In this document: piece by piece, positions 59,415-63,511 of the stretch | Layout of the letters: every line of letters starts with the position of its first letter | Numbering within the stretch: the stretch's first letter is position 1 | Source of the DNA: Candidatus Levyibacteriota bacterium | Lineage (GTDB): Bacteria > Patescibacteriota > Microgenomatia > Levybacterales > UBA12049 | Assembly: GCA_038254115.1 (NCBI GenBank) | Contig: JBBSGK010000001.1 | Span: forward strand, 67,778 to 131,777 | Length of the DNA: 64,000 nucleotides | Reading direction: 5' to 3' | Position numbers and translations under genes: made by a program | Notes under the pieces: generated by a model | What the model was told of the DNA's origin: nothing | What the model saw: only the letters and a program-made list of their open reading frames with translations | The model's database searches: none

Positions 59415-62156
59415 TTATGATAAATTAGGATAATGACATTTTTTCCACTTTTTACCACTTCCGCACCAGCAGGGGTCATTTCTACTTAATTTATTTTGCG
59501 CTTTTGCTTTTGGTTTTTTAGCATCTTGTGAGACTTCACTTTCAGGCGTGTTGGTTACTGCATTGGCAAGAGGGTTTGTCTTCGGAATTTGGGGAGCGTT
59601 TCCTGTCTGCGCCGGACCCTGATGTACAGTTCCATCTTCATGCGTGTGCTGCTCCTGGACCTGAAGCTTGTATATTCTGTGCGCGACCTCATCATTTATT
59701 GATGACATAAGACCTTCAAACATATTGAATCCTTCATTTTTATATTCAACCAGCGGATCTTTTTGCGCATATCCTCGGAGTCCAATACCTGATCTTAAGT
59801 TGTCCATTGCATCAAGATGGTTCATCCAGAGATTATCAATTACAGAAAGCAATACAAACTTCTCGACTTGGCGCATAAGAGTAGTTCCAACCTGAGCCTC
59901 GCGCTGATCATATATATCGCTTGCCATTTTGGTCAGAAATTCAGTCTTTTCCTCGATAGTATGCAGCTGCTCAAGTTGTTTGACCAACTGTTTTCTCGAC
60001 TGCTCATCAAAAGGTATGATTGTCCCGAATTCCTCTATTATTTTTTCGTTGTGTAGTTCTTGTTGGGCATCTTTTGCAATTGCTACAGCCACAATGGTAC
60101 TGATGGCAACGGAGATGCGGTTTTTAACTTCTTCTTTTAAGTTGGCATCTCCATCCTTTGCGGTTTCGAGAATTTTTCTTCTGAGTTGATAAATTATCTC
60201 CCGTTGTTTATTCAAAACATCATCGTATTCGACGAGATGTTTTCTGGTGTCAAAATTAAATCCCTCTACTTTTACCTGAGCGTTTTCAATTGATTTTGAA
60301 ACAAGCGGATGTTCAAGAGGAACGTCCTCAGGCATATTAAAGCGTGTCATAATCCCGGCAATTTTGTCACCGCCAAATAAGCGCATTATCTCATCATCCA
60401 AGGCAACAAAGAATCTGGACGCGCCGGGGTCACCTTGTCTGCCCGATCTTCCTCTTAGCTGGTTATCAATTCTCCGAGATTCGTGACGCTCTGTTCCGAT
60501 TACATACAATCCGCCAAGCCTGAGAACCTCATCATGTTCTTTTTCCCATTTTTTATATTCGGCTGAGCTTTTATTGGTTGTGCCGTCTTTATTCTTTGGT
60601 GTTTCTCCACCCAGTACGATATCAACTCCCCGGCCTGCCATGTTGGTCGCAACAGTTACTGCTCCCATTTTACCGGCCTCCGCGATAATCTCAGCTTCTC
60701 TTATATGGTTTTTGGCATTTAGTAGTTCAAATTTTATTTTCTTCCTTTTCAAATACTCCGCAACAATCTCATTCTTCTCAATTGATGTGGTACCGACCAG
60801 AACAGGCTGTTTCTTTTTGTGCGCTTCTTCAATTGCATTGACAACAGCTGCGTATTTAGCACGGGTTGTTTTATAAACTGCATCTGAATTGTCGATTCTA
60901 ACCATGGGATTGTGGGTTGGGATTACTACAACATCCAGCTCATAAATTTTTCTAAATTCCTCGGCTTCAGTAACAGCTGTTCCTGTCATTCCTGCCAATT
61001 TTTCATAAAGTCTAAAATAATTTTGGAGCGAAACAGTAGCAAGAGTTTTGGACTCCCGTTGAATCGGCACGTTTTCCTTGGCTTCAATTGCCTGGTGTAT
61101 TCCTTCAGATAGCCTTCTTCCCTCCATCAGGCGGCCTGTAAATTCGTCAACCAAAATCACCTGGTTGTCCTTAACGATATATTCTTTTTCTTTATGGAAT
61201 AAAGTACGCGCCTTAAGAGCGGCTTCCAAATGATAAACAACGTCAAAATCTTTTTCATAGATATCCGACACGCCGTAAAGCTTTTCAACTTTACCGATTC
61301 CATGATCTGTAAGATGTGCGGTGCGGAGTTTTTCATCAATTATGAAATCTGTGTCGGGAGCCAGCTTATCCACAACTTTGGCGTATTCATAATACCGCTG
61401 ACTTGGCTCCTCATCAGGTGCTGAGATGATGTGAGGGGTTCTGGCTTCATCGATAAGGACTGAATCGACCTCATCAACAATTGCATAGTAATAGCCCCGC
61501 TGAACCAGCTGATCAAGTTCCTGTGCCATATTGTCACGAAGGTAATCAAAACCAAACTCTGAATTAATACCATACGTTACATCGGCGAGATATGCTTCTT
61601 TGCGTGATACAGGTTTTAAATGAAGCAAGCGGTAATCAAAAGCATTTTCCTGTGTAAATTTGGGGTCATAGATAAATGATTGGTCATTTATAATTGATGA
61701 AACAGATACCCCAAGAAAGTCAAAAACAGGAGCGTTCCATCCTGCATCCCGTCTTGCCAGATAATCATTAACGGTAACCAGATGGACACCTTTTCCGGTT
61801 AGGCTGTGAAGATATAACGCAGGAATTGCTGAAATTGTCTTTCCCTCTCCCGTTTTTTGCTCGGCAATTTTACCGCTTGCAAGCGTAATTGCTGCCATAA
61901 GTTGAACGTCAAAATGGCGCATTCCCAAAGTACGTCTTGTTGCTTCACGGGCCAGCGCAAAAGCCTCAGGCATTATTTGTTCAAGAGTTTCTCCTTTTTT
62001 AAGTCTCTCTTTAAATTCTTTAGTTTTTTTGGGAAAGTCTGAGTCTTTTAACTTTTCAACCGTTTTCTCTAGATTGTTGATTTCATCAACGATTGGCTGG
62101 ATTTTTCCGACCTCCCGGTTGTTGGAATCAAAAAATTTATTTAAAATACCTAACAT
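59415..62156 (-). CDS. secA: Preprotein translocase ATPase SecA
   Basis: DEAD motor, PPXD, and a C-terminal Zn finger CWCGSGKKWKKCH. Confidence 0.95.
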   Translation of the reverse strand: MLGILNKFFDSNNREVGKIQPIVDEINNLEKTVEKLKDSDFPKKTKEFKERLKKGETLEQIMPEAFALAREATRRTLGMRHFDVQLMAAITLASGKIAEQKTGEGKTISAIPALYLHSLTGKGVHLVTVNDYLARRDAGWNAPVFDFLGVSVSSIINDQSFIYDPKFTQENAFDYRLLHLKPVSRKEAYLADVTYGINSEFGFDYLRDNMAQELDQLVQRGYYYAIVDEVDSVLIDEARTPHIISAPDEEPSQRYYEYAKVVDKLAPDTDFIIDEKLRTAHLTDHGIGKVEKLYGVSDIYEKDFDVVYHLEAALKARTLFHKEKEYIVKDNQVILVDEFTGRLMEGRRLSEGIHQAIEAKENVPIQRESKTLATVSLQNYFRLYEKLAGMTGTAVTEAEEFRKIYELDVVVIPTHNPMVRIDNSDAVYKTTRAKYAAVVNAIEEAHKKKQPVLVGTTSIEKNEIVAEYLKRKKIKFELLNAKNHIREAEIIAEAGKMGAVTVATNMAGRGVDIVLGGETPKNKDGTTNKSSAEYKKWEKEHDEVLRLGGLYVIGTERHESRRIDNQLRGRSGRQGDPGASRFFVALDDEIMRLFGGDKIAGIMTRFNMPEDVPLEHPLVSKSIENAQVKVEGFNFDTRKHLVEYDDVLNKQREIIYQLRRKILETAKDGDANLKEEVKNRISVAISTIVAVAIAKDAQQELHNEKIIEEFGTIIPFDEQSRKQLVKQLEQLHTIEEKTEFLTKMASDIYDQREAQVGTTLMRQVEKFVLLSVIDNLWMNHLDAMDNLRSGIGLRGYAQKDPLVEYKNEGFNMFEGLMSSINDEVAHRIYKLQVQEQHTHEDGTVHQGPAQTGNAPQIPKTNPLANAVTNTPESEVSQDAKKPKAKAQNKLSRNDPCWCGSGKKWKKCHYPNLS

Positions 62157-62282
62157 ATGTAATTATTTTCCATTTATCATTTACCATTTTCCATTGATTT
62201 TAGAATTTGAAGACTGGCCAATTGAAGATAAATGGTAGGTGGAAAATGTACACTGGCAAATCGTATATCTATCTTACCACAA

Positions 62283-62322
62283 ATTAGGTTCAAAAAAAAC
62301 CCCGCTCATTTATTTTAATAAG
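62283..62322 (-). terminator. Rho-independent terminator (10-bp GC-rich stem containing one G-U pair, followed by T8)
   Basis: ccccgctcat...atgggcgggg on the + strand. On the minus strand it is followed by TTTTTTTT. Confidence 0.6.
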
Positions 62323-62378
62323 ATGGGCGGGGCTTACCAATTGATCAGTTGGTAATGTGTTTTAAACATTAACCAAAA

Positions 62379-62429
62379 CTATTTCTTTTTCTTTGTAGCT
62401 GTTTTCTTTGCTTTTTTCTTTGCTGGCAT
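62379..62429 (-). CDS. Candidate 16-aa Lys-rich micro-ORF (MPAKKKAKKTATKKKK) with a strong Shine-Dalgarno sequence
   Basis: GGGAGGTGA lies 6 nt upstream of the ATG. A TTGACA -35 box lies further upstream, and the terminator follows about 40 nt downstream. Confidence 0.25.
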   Translation of the reverse strand: MPAKKKAKKTATKKKK

Positions 62430-62644
62430 GTAAAATCACCTCCCTTGTCTCGCCGAAGTTCGCACGAAGGCGTACTCCAAACCTTAGGATAATTTAATAG
62501 TGTAATTAATAACTTAATTTGTCAAGAAAATTTCATTGCTTCAAAAGTGGCAAATTAGCTTGATAATGCAACAAAAATTATGAATAGGAAATTATTACTT
62601 TTTTCTAACAAAATGAGGCTAAAAAATATTATTTTTTTAAAATA

Positions 62645-63511
62645 TTATTTATATTTTTGTATATATTGTTTGTAGGCTCTTGGGAACCGGAGAGCTGAGA
62701 AAAATGAGAATACGAGTCCCTGCCAAGAGTCGAGAAACCCTTTGTGCCGTATAAACGTATTTAAAAACCATCCAACAGGAAGAATTACCAAATACTTAAC
62801 TGCAGTTATTGGATCTTTACCGGTTTTTTTGATTTTAAGTTCCTGCGCTATAAGGTCAACATATCTATTGTTACGTTTTATATATCTTGAAAAGGTGGGG
62901 TCCGCCAGATGTATCAGGTCATTTTCCAGCCAGCCGACTCTGCCATTCACGCTAAATTGTTCATGGACGTCAACGCATGGAAGAAAAGCTTTGCTCTTTT
63001 TAATAAGTCTTATTACCCCATCTGGATAGACTCCGCCGTAACGCAGGTACCTACCCAGAAAATAATTAAGACGCGGAACAAAAAATGCAACATAAGGGTC
63101 CTCCTGTATTCCAATAGAACCATCCCTTTTTTCCAATAGTTGCTGATGCCTTAGGAATAATTTTCTTTTTGGAAGATATTCCTGATATTTTTTTAATTCT
63201 TTTTCCGTCATGTCAATAACTTTTTTTATCTCATGGCCCAACTCCGGGCTTACCTGCTCATCGGCATCAAGTTGCAGGACCCACTCATTTGTTGATAAAT
63301 CTATGGCTTTTTGTTTGTTAATATGAAAGATTGGGGGATTATCAGTAATTTTTATATGGGCGCCGTATTTTTTGGCAATTTCGGCTGTTTTGTCAGTTGA
63401 GGATCCGTCAACTATTATGATCTCAGAAGCAATATCTTTTACCGAATCAAGACAATCTCCGAGATCCTCCTCTTCGTTAAATGTAGCGAGCGCAACAGTT
63501 AATTTGGCCAT
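62645..63511 (-). CDS. Family 2 glycosyltransferase
   Basis: VALATFNEEEDLGDCLDS...IIVDGSSTD...LDADE (DxD). Confidence 0.85.
   Translation of the reverse strand: MAKLTVALATFNEEEDLGDCLDSVKDIASEIIIVDGSSTDKTAEIAKKYGAHIKITDNPPIFHINKQKAIDLSTNEWVLQLDADEQVSPELGHEIKKVIDMTEKELKKYQEYLPKRKLFLRHQQLLEKRDGSIGIQEDPYVAFFVPRLNYFLGRYLRYGGVYPDGVIRLIKKSKAFLPCVDVHEQFSVNGRVGWLENDLIHLADPTFSRYIKRNNRYVDLIAQELKIKKTGKDPITAVKYLVILPVGWFLNTFIRHKGFLDSWQGLVFSFFSALRFPRAYKQYIQKYK

What the first reader, a model, noticed from the sequence alone, without database searches (positions are those of the whole stretch)
62283..62520. Stand-alone micro-ORF MPAKKKAKKTATKKKK with its own -35 box, structured leader, strong Shine-Dalgarno and terminator, upstream of secA
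On the minus strand the order is a TTGACA -35 box, a leader hairpin (CGCC-UUCG..CGAA-CUUC-GGCG), GGGAGGUGA, a 6-nt spacer, the AUG of a 16-codon ORF encoding 11 Lys, and about 40 nt later a strong terminator with a 10-bp stem and U8. It lies between the GT2 gene and secA. This could be a tiny basic peptide such as a ribosome-associated micro-protein. Alternatively it could be a poly-Lys stalling or attenuation leader, which would be intriguing given that secA in other bacteria is controlled by the SecM arrest peptide.
Basis: partly seen in the sequence, partly recalled or inferred. Interest (0 to 1): 0.5.

Follow-up and report, generated by a model that had tools for sequence, protein, structure and literature searches.

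The report
Conserved poly-lysine micro-gene upstream of secA
A 16-codon gene for an almost pure lysine peptide, with its own promoter, very strong ribosome-binding site and terminator, is conserved and unannotated across the uncultured Levybacteria, and it is a stand-alone micro-gene, not a control element for the neighbouring secretion gene secA.

Summary
The feature is real. Window 62292..62525 (minus strand) holds TTGACA-17-CACTAT, a 10-nt Shine-Dalgarno, ATG, MPAKKKAKKTATKKKK (9 Lys, not 11), a structured 3' UTR and a hairpin+U8 terminator. It is conserved. The same cassette lies between serS and secA in 36 of 72 informative species-level relatives (Levybacteria, Patescibacteria) and in 12 metagenome contigs.

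Evidence of translation:
- None of 564 residues in 45 distinct ORFs falls outside K/R/A/T/V/P/G (shuffles: 187±10).
- AAG 202, AGA 30, GAA 0.
- Codon 2 is always Ala or Pro.
- AAG codons are placed so that no A-run exceeds 8 (expected 10.8 with secA codon usage).

secA has its own extended -10 promoter, 6-14 nt before its ATG in 54 of 77 loci, and almost never a Shine-Dalgarno. This also holds where the cassette is absent. I found no antiterminator. The SecM-like and attenuator readings are therefore not supported. The window's leader hairpin is neither significant nor conserved.

Best reading: a highly expressed gene for a polycationic peptide, probably nucleic-acid or ribosome binding, like bS22/eL41. 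Its function is inferred, not shown. An unexplained conserved hairpin starts at the stop codon, next to a 22-nt palindrome.

The parts
62534..62582 (-). Conserved upstream blocks. Consensus: TGTGATTTTT / ATTAnCAAyCTAAA / TTTTGAAGCAAGG. In the window: CATAATTTTTG at 62572-82, ATTATCAAGCTAA at 62555-67, CTTTTGAAGCAATG at 62534-47. Role unknown (promoter-upstream or regulatory region).
   Evidence: Aligned in most of 36 loci; coordinates. Absent in L030, where serS runs up to the -35 box. On the opposite strand they read as a weak promoter-like match, TTCAAA-16-GATAAT.
62497..62525 (-). Promoter of the micro-gene: -35 TTGACA (62520-62525), a 17-bp spacer, -10 CACTAT (62497-62502).
   Evidence: The -35 box and the nAnnAT -10 at 17 bp are conserved in almost all cassette-positive loci. 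Coordinates. The scan tool did not list it because the -10 matches only 3 of 6 positions.
62451..62472 (-). A lineage-specific insertion in the 5' UTR, not part of the conserved core.
   Evidence: Fold z = +0.44. Absent in L002, L006, L007, L013, L044, L046 and L054; other loci carry unrelated 5' hairpins.
62435..62444 (-). Shine-Dalgarno GGGAGGTGAT, followed by the 6-nt spacer TTTTAC.
   Evidence: (G/A)GGTGA is found upstream of the ATG in every positive locus, with up to 12 nt of AAGGAGGTGATC. The reading as complementary to the 16S rRNA 3' tail rests on general knowledge, because no 16S gene was examined. GGAGGTGAT occurs only twice in both strands of the 64-kb window.
62379..62429 (-). Micro-ORF ATG...TAG, 16 codons: MPAKKKAKKTATKKKK (9 Lys; net charge about +9).
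   Evidence: Homologous 9-34-codon ORFs occur in 36 + 12 loci. There are 0/564 residues outside KRATVPG, against 187±10 in shuffles. AAG is enriched (55% vs 26% in secA, p = 4e-23). No A-run is 9 or longer. An internal 12-nt tandem repeat explains length change in whole codons.
62348..62381 (-). Hairpin H1, which begins at the stop codon. UAGU...UUGGUUAAUGU (seg1, 62366-76) pairs with ACAUUACCAACUG (seg2, 62348-58).
   Evidence: The minimum-free-energy fold of the 3' UTR pairs UAGU with ACUG and seg1 with seg2. Across 41 distinct 3' UTRs the median z is -3.9. The stop codon is paired in 21 of 41. In a deep clade a different hairpin starts at the stop codon.
62334..62355 (-). Near-perfect palindrome TTACCAACTGATCAATTGGTAA (seg2:seg3, hairpin H2). 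Its left arm is shared with H1, so H1 and H2 are mutually exclusive.
   Evidence: The 18-nt core occurs once in the 64-kb window. It occurs once, at this position only, in 32 of the 80 loci. It is absent from viral contigs. Its sequence is almost invariant, while neighbouring hairpins vary.
62292..62333 (-). Intrinsic terminator: GCCCCGCCCAT...ATGAGCGGGG plus T8.
   Evidence: Folds. A GC-rich hairpin followed by a T-run is present at this position in nearly all positive loci, with different stem sequences.
62271..62293 (-). Conserved secA promoter region, TTGAACCTAATTTGTGGTAAGAT (extended -10 TGGTAAGAT at 62271-79). It is not part of the micro-gene and shows that secA is transcribed on its own.
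   Evidence: The same TTTTGAGGCTG..TGTGGTAAnAT follows the terminator in cassette-positive and cassette-negative loci. The extended -10 ends 6-14 nt before the secA ATG in 54 of 77 loci. In the window it lies 114 nt upstream, because of an insertion.

Best explanation
This is a self-contained transcription unit of about 200 nt that encodes a very short polycationic peptide. It is not a leader of secA.

Anatomy, in order: a sigma-70-type promoter (TTGACA-17-CACTAT); a short 5' UTR; a 9-12-nt Shine-Dalgarno (read as complementary to the 16S 3' tail); a 9-34-codon ORF made almost only of Lys/Arg with Ala/Thr/Val/Pro spacers (16 codons here); a hairpin that starts at the stop codon; and an intrinsic terminator.

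Shown here:
- The unit is conserved across the Levybacteria clade.
- The reading frame is under strong selection for a basic peptide.
- Slippery A-runs are avoided, so the ORF is built to be translated faithfully.
- secA is served by its own leaderless-type promoter.

Inferred:
- The expression signals and the 5'/3' hairpins give a stable, heavily translated mRNA.
- The initiator Met is removed, because position 2 is always Ala or Pro.
- The free peptide is the functional product. It acts as a polycation that binds RNA or DNA, either as a ribosome- or rRNA-pocket micro-protein of the bS22/eL41/bL37 type, or as an H1/protamine-like counter-ion.
- Its position next to secA reflects inheritance in the ancient serS-secA spacer, not regulation of secA.
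For: Conservation:
- 36 of 80 species-representative loci found with SecA carry the ORF 95-375 nt upstream of secA on the same strand.
- 12 further metagenome contigs do too. All of those with enough sequence read serS - cassette - secA.
- The positives fill one clade of the SecA tree.

Coding constraint:
- 0/564 residues outside K,R,A,T,V,P,G, against 187.5±10.5 in 2000 shuffles (minimum 147). Other frames give 36-59% 'foreign' residues.
- AAG 202, AGA 30, AGG 5, GAA/GAG/AAC/AAT/CAA 0.
- Lys-to-Arg replacements occur in several lineages.
- Codon 2 is GCN or CCA in 45 of 45.
- The start codon is ATG in all but one (TTG in L040).

Faithful translation:
- AAG makes up 55% of Lys codons, against 26% in the adjacent secA genes (Fisher p = 3.9e-23).
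- The mean longest A-run is 6.07, and none reaches 9. Expected values are 10.8 with secA codon usage and 7.07±0.23 when the ORFs' own AAA/AAG codons are permuted. No simulation out of 3000 was as low.

Expression signals: the promoter and the Shine-Dalgarno are conserved.

Independence from secA.

Precedent: unannotated micro r-proteins with about 60% K/R, such as Borrelia bS22 (30 aa, essential candidate, abundant transcript), with eL41 as analogue (PMC10618245).

The longer versions (for example MPVKKKVAAKKPAAKKTVKKAVKKTVKKTAAKKK) have the KKxx periodicity of H1-like Ala/Lys/Pro tails. That resemblance rests on my own knowledge.
Against: - There is no expression or proteomic data; everything rests on comparative sequence.
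- The shortest versions (MAKKKKKKK, 9 codons) are far shorter than any known ribosomal protein. They may be too short to be stable or to bind specifically.
- No sequence similarity to any family could be shown: Pfam, NCBIfam and PDB gave no hits.
- About 10 lineages inside the clade have lost the cassette from this site. So it is dispensable there, or has moved; I could not check which.
- The conserved hairpin at the stop codon and the invariant palindrome are not explained by a simple 'peptide factory'.
Confidence: 0.5

Rival explanations
1. A translation-coupled RNA device. The transcript, not the peptide, is the main actor: either a dual-function small RNA, or a unit in which the terminating ribosome toggles the 3' UTR. 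A ribosome at the stop codon melts hairpin H1, and seg2 then pairs with seg3 (H2). This could control mRNA stability or the availability of seg3. It could also return the ribosome to the strong Shine-Dalgarno only 30-50 nt upstream, giving repeated re-initiation.
For: - A hairpin that starts at the stop codon is conserved by structure even where its sequence differs.
- The inner stems show many compensatory variants.
- In L072 a seg1/seg2 change TTGG/CCAA to TTGA/TCAA keeps the pairing.
- seg1, seg2 and seg3 are nearly invariant, as expected for segments with two pairing partners.
- H1 and H2 are close in energy: H2 is in the minimum-free-energy fold in 13 of 41.
- The palindrome occurs only in this cassette.
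Against: - The ORF is more widely conserved than the palindrome: L022, L030 and L063 keep the ORF but lack or degrade the palindrome.
- A pure 'translate anything' switch would not need a strictly polybasic peptide with Lys-to-Arg conservation and Ala/Pro at position 2.
- No target or output of the switch can be named. Both H1 and H2 are compatible with the terminator.
Confidence: 0.2
2. A cis-acting leader of secA: a poly-Lys arrest or attenuation peptide whose translation controls read-through of the terminator into secA, by analogy with SecM.
For: It lies immediately upstream of secA on the same strand in every case. A run of one kind of codon is followed by hairpins and a terminator.
Against: - secA carries its own extended -10 (TGnTAnnnT) ending 6-14 nt before the ATG in 54 of 77 loci. 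An SD-like motif is present in only 2 of 77. The same promoter is present where the cassette is absent. A read-through transcript would therefore present an internal, SD-less AUG.
- I found no structure that competes with the terminator stem.
- The peptide has no hydrophobic signal or TM segment and no arrest motif.
- A-runs that cause sliding or stalling are selected against.
- The cassette was lost about 10 times while secA stayed.
- The position is explained by the ancestral serS-secA adjacency.
Confidence: 0.05
3. The 22-bp palindrome TTACCAAyTGATCAATTGGTAA is a DNA operator for a dimeric regulator. That regulator would either block transcription of the micro-gene as a roadblock or act on the secA promoter. 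The third half-site at the stop codon would be an auxiliary site.
For: - The palindrome sequence is almost invariant, while flanking hairpins drift.
- Inner-stem deviations are often uncompensated: C·A, A·A or U·U in several clades.
- Upstream block ATTAnCAAyC resembles a half-site.
Against: - It is absent from cassette-negative loci that keep the same secA promoter.
- The seg1-seg2 distance varies from 3 to 46 nt, filled by compensating helices. That fits RNA, not a rigid DNA-binding dimer.
- There is no further copy in the 64-kb window or in 80 loci.
- No regulator gene is linked: the window's HTH gene and 58-aa ORF are not conserved.
Confidence: 0.1
4. A chance ORF in an A-rich spacer, with the hairpin being merely the terminator of the upstream gene.
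For: The ORF is tiny, and no gene caller lists it. The peptides are not in a 15-billion-protein collection.
Against: - The ATG, the Shine-Dalgarno, the promoter and frame-specific composition are conserved over SecA divergence down to about 62% identity.
- The GT2 gene upstream is found only in the window among all loci held, so the terminator is not 'its' conserved terminator.
Confidence: 0.02

Closest known systems
Tiny polybasic ribosomal proteins bS22 / eL41 (also bL37, bTHX)
   Same: They are very short, about 60% or more Lys/Arg, often unannotated, and abundantly expressed. Borrelia bS22 is 30 aa with 61% K/R and was found only by cryo-EM plus a translated search (PMC10618245). The Levybacteria peptides are 47-80% K/R.
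   Different: No sequence similarity could be shown. Many versions are only 9-13 residues and nearly homopolymeric, far below the 24-33 residues of those proteins. Length varies 4-fold between relatives. Ribosome binding is untested.
SecM-secA (E. coli) and other secretion-monitoring arrest peptides (MifM, VemP, RAPP-type)
   Same: A small ORF immediately upstream of a protein-export gene.
   Different: SecM-type monitors have a signal or TM segment and a specific arrest motif. They are co-transcribed with the target, whose Shine-Dalgarno they unmask (established knowledge; RAPP class in PMC12992588). Here there is no hydrophobic segment, a terminator, a separate leaderless secA promoter, and no secA Shine-Dalgarno.
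Ribosome-mediated attenuation leaders (hisL, trpL, pheL), and the trans-acting leader peptide/sRNA pair peTrpL/rnTrpL
   Same: A short ORF rich in one amino acid, followed by hairpins and an intrinsic terminator, giving a small released RNA. peTrpL shows that a 14-aa leader peptide and its attenuator RNA can act in trans (PMC7298713, PMC7968998).
   Different: I found no antiterminator that overlaps the terminator. The downstream gene has its own promoter and is not a lysine-pathway gene. The codon runs are broken up to avoid stalling or slippage.
Histone-H1-like Ala/Lys/Pro tails of bacterial nucleoid proteins (mycobacterial HupB C-terminus, chlamydial Hc1)
   Same: The longer versions (PAKKKAAKKTAKKKKK; VAAKKPAAKKTVKKAVKK...) have the same AKKx/PAKK repeat character. 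The resemblance is from my own knowledge.
   Different: Those are tails of folded proteins of 100 or more residues. Here the repeat stands alone as the whole gene product.
mRNA stabilisers of Gram-positive bacteria (5' stem-loops; 'STAB-SD' of B. thuringiensis cry3A)
   Same: A near-perfect Shine-Dalgarno close to the 5' end, plus 5' and 3' hairpins on a short mRNA. This comparison is from my own knowledge.
   Different: Here the Shine-Dalgarno is a genuine translation start for the micro-ORF. A stabilising role is only inferred.

Membership tests
SecM-type secretion-monitoring arrest peptide | N-terminal signal sequence or TM segment that engages the Sec machinery | tested here: not met
   All 45 peptides consist only of K,R,A,T,V,P,G. 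None has a hydrophobic stretch.
SecM-type secretion-monitoring arrest peptide | Co-transcription with the target, and unmasking of the target's Shine-Dalgarno by the stalled ribosome | tested here: not met
   There is an intrinsic terminator between the ORF and secA. secA has its own extended -10, 6-14 nt from the ATG in 54 of 77 loci, and an SD-like motif in 2 of 77.
SecM-type secretion-monitoring arrest peptide | Conserved C-terminal arrest motif | tested here: not met
   The C-termini are K/R runs of variable length. No conserved motif is present.
Ribosome-mediated transcription attenuator | Antiterminator helix that is mutually exclusive with the terminator and is selected by ribosome position | tested here: not met
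   The alternative helices H1/H2 exist, but neither overlaps the terminator stem. The terminator forms in all predicted folds.
Ribosome-mediated transcription attenuator | The downstream operon depends on read-through and is functionally tied to the sensed amino acid | tested here: not met
   secA has its own promoter in cassette-positive and cassette-negative loci. secA is not a lysine-pathway gene.
bS22/eL41-type polybasic micro ribosomal protein | Very short (about 24-33 aa) and about 60% or more Lys/Arg | tested here: inconclusive
   K+R is 47-80%, but the length is 9-34 aa, with most at 9-20. The comparison values come from PMC10618245.
bS22/eL41-type polybasic micro ribosomal protein | Detectable sequence relationship to known members | tested here: not met
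   phmmer against all PDB chains gave no hit at E<=10. Pfam and NCBIfam gave no hit. Low-complexity filtering limits the force of this test.
bS22/eL41-type polybasic micro ribosomal protein | Bound in an rRNA pocket of the ribosome | not testable with these tools
   This needs ribosome purification, cryo-EM or mass spectrometry from Levybacteria.
Known RNA families (Rfam 15) | Match to a curated covariance model | tested here: not met
   No match at gathering score in the window or in 12 related loci. Only noise (E>0.4) appeared in the permissive scan of 61900..62900.

The most novel reading that the evidence does not exclude
Levybacteria encode oligolysine as a genetically templated polycation. 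This would be a ribosomally made surrogate for, or complement of, polyamines that neutralises rRNA or DNA in their very small cells. It would be produced from a dedicated micro-gene whose stop-codon hairpin and strong Shine-Dalgarno keep ribosomes cycling on a 27-100-nt ORF.

One hint supports this. In the sister clade the same serS-secA slot holds a gene with a spermine/spermidine-synthase domain (23 loci). None of the 36 cassette-positive loci has one in the sequence held.
Probability: 0.12. Interest if true: 0.85.

Novelty: new variant of a known kind. Interest (0 to 1): 0.6.

Why it matters
If the peptide is made, these would be, to my knowledge, among the shortest conserved protein-coding genes known (9 codons in many species). 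They would be an unannotated, phylum-wide component of Candidate Phyla Radiation bacteria, whose ribosomes and nucleoids are already known to be reduced and unusual.

The finding gives a concrete, easily synthesised candidate (oligolysine peptides of 8-33 residues) to look for in ribosome or nucleoid preparations.

It also shows that gene callers miss a conserved gene with textbook expression signals.

For secA biology it removes a tempting false lead. In this group secA is a leaderless, separately transcribed gene, not a SecM-like regulated one.

Tried and rejected
- **Rfam.** The window, 12 loci and a permissive local scan gave nothing.
- **Protein families.** Pfam, NCBIfam and PDB sequence searches with the 20-34-aa versions gave no hits.
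- **Exact look-up.** Six peptides were looked up in the 15-billion-protein collection; none is present. The first attempt failed because a 16-aa query is too short.
- **Stop-codon read-through to a longer protein.** Rejected. The distance from the stop to the palindrome falls in all three frames (8/21/17, my count from the distances).
- **Alternative frames.** Rejected. The other frames give Glu/Ser/Gln-rich peptides with stop codons.
- **Linked regulator gene.** The window's HTH_17 gene, 58-aa ORF and GT2 gene have no counterpart in related loci.
- **Phage origin.** The palindrome is absent from 2.9 million viral contigs.
- **Formal covariation on a MAFFT alignment (A1).** Abandoned, because seg1 and the inner hairpins were misaligned. 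I used per-sequence pairing and folding instead.
- **Metagenome palindrome scan.** About 90% of matches were chance hits, as expected for an 18-mer with four degenerate positions. Only those with the ORF were used.
- **First NJ tree attempt.** It timed out and was redone.
Full report
**1. What is in the window**

All features below are on the minus strand.
- Promoter: TTGACA (62520-62525), a 17-bp spacer, CACTAT (62497-62502).
- 5' UTR of about 55 nt.
- Shine-Dalgarno GGGAGGTGAT (62435-62444), then the 6-nt spacer TTTTAC.
- ORF from the ATG (62429) to the TAG (62379): ATG CCA GCA AAG AAA AAA GCA AAG AAA ACA GCT ACA AAG AAA AAG AAA TAG = MPAKKKAKKTATKKKK.
- A structured 44-nt stretch after the stop.
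- Terminator hairpin GCCCCGCCCAT...ATGAGCGGGG plus T8 (62292-62333).

Upstream lies a family-2 glycosyltransferase (GT2) gene (62645-63511). Beyond it is the 3' part of a class-II aminoacyl-tRNA synthetase gene that matches serS of relatives. Downstream lies secA (59415-62156).

Two details of the finding are wrong or weak:
- The peptide has 9 lysines, not 11.
- The 'structured leader' (62451-62472) folds no better than shuffled sequence (z = +0.44).

The simple terminator scan did not list the hairpin. RNAfold does, however: the 3' UTR gives -24.9 kcal/mol, z = -3.6.

No Rfam family matches anywhere in the window.

**2. Origin and conservation**

A SecA-based scan of one genome per species returned 80 loci, all Patescibacteria of the Microgenomates group. 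The closest are labelled Levybacteria, with up to 84-88% SecA identity.

Presence of the micro-ORF:
- 36 loci have a Lys-rich micro-ORF of 9-34 codons on the secA strand, 95-375 nt upstream of secA. It is always preceded by (G/A)GGTGA-type Shine-Dalgarno sequences.
- 8 loci are too short upstream to judge.
- 36 informative loci lack it.

Phylogenetic pattern (SecA neighbour-joining tree):
- The positives fill one major clade, Levybacteria in the broad sense. Its deepest members share only about 62% SecA identity with the window.
- About ten negatives are scattered inside that clade: L005/L011, L008, L009, L010, L012, L014, L015, L019 and L043.
- The sister clade (Gottesmanbacteria, Woesebacteria and others) has none.

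A metagenome scan with the 3' palindrome gave mostly chance matches. It also gave 12 further cassettes. In these, secA follows in all 9 contigs that reach far enough, and serS precedes in 11.

serS-secA adjacency is ancestral for the whole group (61 loci). The GT2 gene is found only in the window among the loci held. The cassette therefore arose once in the serS-secA spacer, was inherited vertically, and was deleted several times.

**3. Is the ORF translated?**

There are 45 distinct ORF sequences. Several independent lines point to a protein-level constraint.

Composition and frame:
- None of 564 internal residues lies outside K, R, A, T, V, P, G. Nucleotide shuffles of the same ORFs give 187.5±10.5 such residues (minimum 147 in 2000).
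- The other two frames give 36% and 59% foreign residues, plus stop codons.
- Among purine codons: AAA 158, AAG 202, AGA 30, AGG 5. GAA, GAG, AAC, AAT, CAA and ATA are all 0. Guanines therefore sit where they keep a basic residue and never where they would make an acidic one.
- Codon 2 is Ala (33) or Pro (12) in all 45.

Other observations:
- Several lineages replace Lys by Arg, for example MARKRAKKRKRR and MAKKRKKRR.
- The start codon is ATG in all but one locus.
- Stops are TAA (19) or TAG (18), never TGA, in the 37 ORFs.
- Length changes occur in whole codons. The window ORF contains a 12-nt tandem repeat, which is a plausible source of such changes.

**4. The gene is built for smooth translation, not for stalling**

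- AAG makes up 55% of Lys codons in the micro-ORFs, against 26% in the adjacent secA genes (Fisher p = 3.9e-23).
- The AAG codons are positioned so that the longest A-run averages 6.07 and never reaches 9.
- With secA codon usage the expected mean is 10.8, and about 31 of 45 ORFs would have runs of 9 or more.
- Permuting each ORF's own AAA/AAG codons gives 7.07±0.23 and about 11.5 such ORFs. No simulation out of 3000 was as low as the observed value.

Long A-runs are the known cause of transcriptional slippage and ribosome sliding on lysine tracts (established knowledge). Selection against them argues for faithful production of the peptide. It argues against a device that relies on poly(A)/poly-Lys stalling.

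**5. Expression signals**

- The -35 TTGACA, the 17-bp spacer and an nAnnAT -10 are aligned in nearly all positive loci.
- Three upstream blocks are also conserved: TGTGATTTTT, ATTAnCAAyCTAAA and TTTTGAAGCAAGG.
- The Shine-Dalgarno extends to 9-12 nt (AAGGAGGTGATC). I read this as complementary to the 16S rRNA 3' tail from general knowledge; no 16S gene is in the sequence I held. GGAGGTGAT occurs only twice in both strands of the window.
- The 5' UTRs vary from about 25 to about 100 nt and often carry unrelated lineage-specific hairpins. The window's hairpin is one of these.

I infer, but cannot show, a stable and heavily translated mRNA.

**6. The 3' UTR**

Architecture:
- seg1, (U)UGGUAA, overlaps or abuts the stop codon. 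It starts 1 to 3 nt before the end of the stop codon in about 30 of 46 loci.
- Next comes a variable loop or an inserted GC-rich helix, with many compensating sequence variants.
- seg2, UUACCAA, follows.
- The centre is YUGAUCRW.
- seg3, UUGGUAA, comes last, directly followed by the terminator.

seg2 and seg3 form a near-perfect 18-22-nt palindrome (window 62334-62355). The 18-nt core occurs once in the 64-kb window. It occurs once, at this position only, in 32 of the 80 loci. It never occurs in viral contigs.

seg1:seg2 (H1) and seg2:seg3 (H2) are mutually exclusive.

Folding results:
- The stop-to-seg2 segment has a median z of -3.9; 37 of 41 have z < -2.
- The stop codon itself is paired in 21 of 41 minimum-free-energy folds, including the window.
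- H2 appears in 13 of 41 folds.
- In the deepest clade (L053, L060, L072, L079, L118, L130) a different hairpin of unrelated sequence starts at the stop codon. The property 'hairpin begins at the stop codon' is thus kept by structure.
- L072 changes TTGG/CCAA to TTGA/TCAA in seg1/seg2, which keeps H1.

These points favour an RNA-level role. A terminating ribosome must open H1 and thereby allow H2.

Neither helix competes with the terminator, so I see no attenuation logic. The output of this toggle is unexplained. Possibilities include keeping the 3' UTR folded whether or not a ribosome is present, returning ribosomes to the nearby start, or acting in trans.

The uncompensated inner-stem mismatches and the sequence invariance leave a DNA-operator reading possible, though less likely.

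**7. Relation to secA**

- In 54 of 77 loci an extended -10 (TGnTAnnnT, mostly TGGTAAAAT or TGGTAAGAT) ends 6-14 nt before the secA ATG. An SD-like motif precedes secA in only 2 of 77. That is the signature of a leaderless mRNA.
- The same promoter, preceded by TTTTGAGGCTG and a terminator, is present in cassette-negative loci, where the terminator belongs to serS.
- A transcript reading through from the cassette would carry an internal AUG without a Shine-Dalgarno.
- In the window the extended -10 (62271-62279) lies 114 nt upstream of the ATG, because of a low-complexity insertion. That insertion includes 4.4 copies of a -10-like heptamer, GGTAAAT (62165-62195). There is still no Shine-Dalgarno.
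- The peptide has no signal or TM segment and no arrest motif.

The SecM analogy and the attenuator reading therefore fail their defining tests.

**8. What the peptide may do**

Nothing in Pfam, NCBIfam or the PDB matches. The peptides are absent from a 15-billion-protein collection. Six full-text literature searches found no description.

The nearest known kind is the set of tiny polybasic ribosomal proteins. Borrelia bS22 is 30 aa with 61% K/R. It was unannotated, is a candidate essential gene with an abundant transcript, and is structurally analogous to eL41 (PMC10618245).

The longer Levybacteria versions also look like H1-type AKKx/PAKK repeats (my own knowledge).

I therefore commit to 'free polycationic peptide that binds RNA or DNA' as the most likely function. 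Confidence is moderate, because the 9-13-residue versions are unprecedentedly short and no expression data exist.

One hint deserves follow-up. In the sister clade the same serS-secA slot holds a 211-215-aa gene with a spermine/spermidine-synthase domain (PF01564; 46.5 and 26.1 bits against a cut-off of 22.9). This is seen in 23 loci. No homologue is found in the sequence held for cassette-positive loci or the window. By eye, that protein lacks the aminopropyltransferase signature as I recall it (my own knowledge), so its activity is uncertain. The pattern may be coincidence.

**9. Verdict**

The 'tiny basic peptide' reading is supported as a conserved, translated, independent micro-gene. The 'secA leader' reading is not supported.

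The element is a new variant of a known kind, the polybasic micro-proteins. It carries an unexplained, conserved RNA module at its stop codon.

Noticed in passing
window 62157..62293; loci L001-L080 just upstream of secA: secA appears to be leaderless across this group. An extended -10 (TGnTAnnnT) ends 6-14 nt before the ATG in 54 of 77 loci, and an SD-like motif is present in only 2 of 77. The window instead has a 114-nt spacer without a Shine-Dalgarno. That spacer contains 4.4 tandem copies of the -10-like heptamer GGTAAAT (62165-62195).
   Followed up: partly
L047-L080 (e.g. L048:2338-2973, L056:2328-2975): In the sister clade (Gottesmanbacteria, Woesebacteria) the serS-secA slot is filled by a 211-215-aa gene with a spermine/spermidine-synthase domain (PF01564). 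This is seen in 23 loci, none of which has the poly-Lys cassette. The cassette-positive loci and the window show no homologue in the sequence held.
   Followed up: partly
window 62645..63511 (-): The GT2 glycosyltransferase gene between serS and the cassette has no counterpart in any of the 80 related loci. It appears to be an insertion specific to this genome.
   Followed up: partly
L074 ~2850-2990, L076 ~2800-2930, L078 ~2850-2990: In some Woesebacteria and Gottesmanbacteria loci, a CTTCTTGACA promoter-like box upstream of secA is followed by about 75-100 nt without an ORF. That stretch contains a small hairpin, a CUGCCC motif and a terminator. It may be a small RNA at the position where Levybacteria have the micro-gene. 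There is no Rfam match.
   Followed up: partly
window 62534..62582 (-); promoter-like match on + strand 62540..62567: Three conserved blocks lie upstream of the cassette promoter. On the opposite strand, blocks C and B read as TTCAAA-16-GATAAT, a promoter-like pair pointing away from the cassette. Their role is unknown.
   Followed up: no
viral loci L204:10045, L202/L214, L206:2789/L218: Phage contigs also carry short polybasic ORFs behind GGAGGTGA. Examples are MAKKKKK* followed by a terminator at the end of a lysis module (endolysin upstream); a 31-aa K/R-rich ORF; and a 24-aa ORF between a DNA helicase gene and endonuclease/primase genes. No relationship to the Levybacteria cassette could be established.
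   Followed up: partly
L164 (reverse strand), ORF MAKKRRRRNSW: This is a frameshifted variant of the micro-ORF. It runs past the usual TAG and stops at the TAA inside seg1 (TAGTTGGTAA holds stops in two frames). It may be a sequencing error, or an example of a built-in back-up stop.
   Followed up: no
window 62334..62348 (-) and equivalents: The palindrome can be read as a 4-codon mini-ORF, UUG AUC AAU UGG UAA. In one subclade the H1 loop, AUUUGGAG, places a GGAG 9 nt upstream of that UUG. This is probably coincidental.
   Followed up: no
L001, L002, L004, L005 and others (record titles): Several of the closest genomes are labelled Lysobacterales, Limnocylindrales, Saccharimonadales or 'uncultured Gammaproteobacteria'. 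Their SecA and synteny place them with Levybacteria, so these are likely mislabelled MAG records.
   Followed up: no
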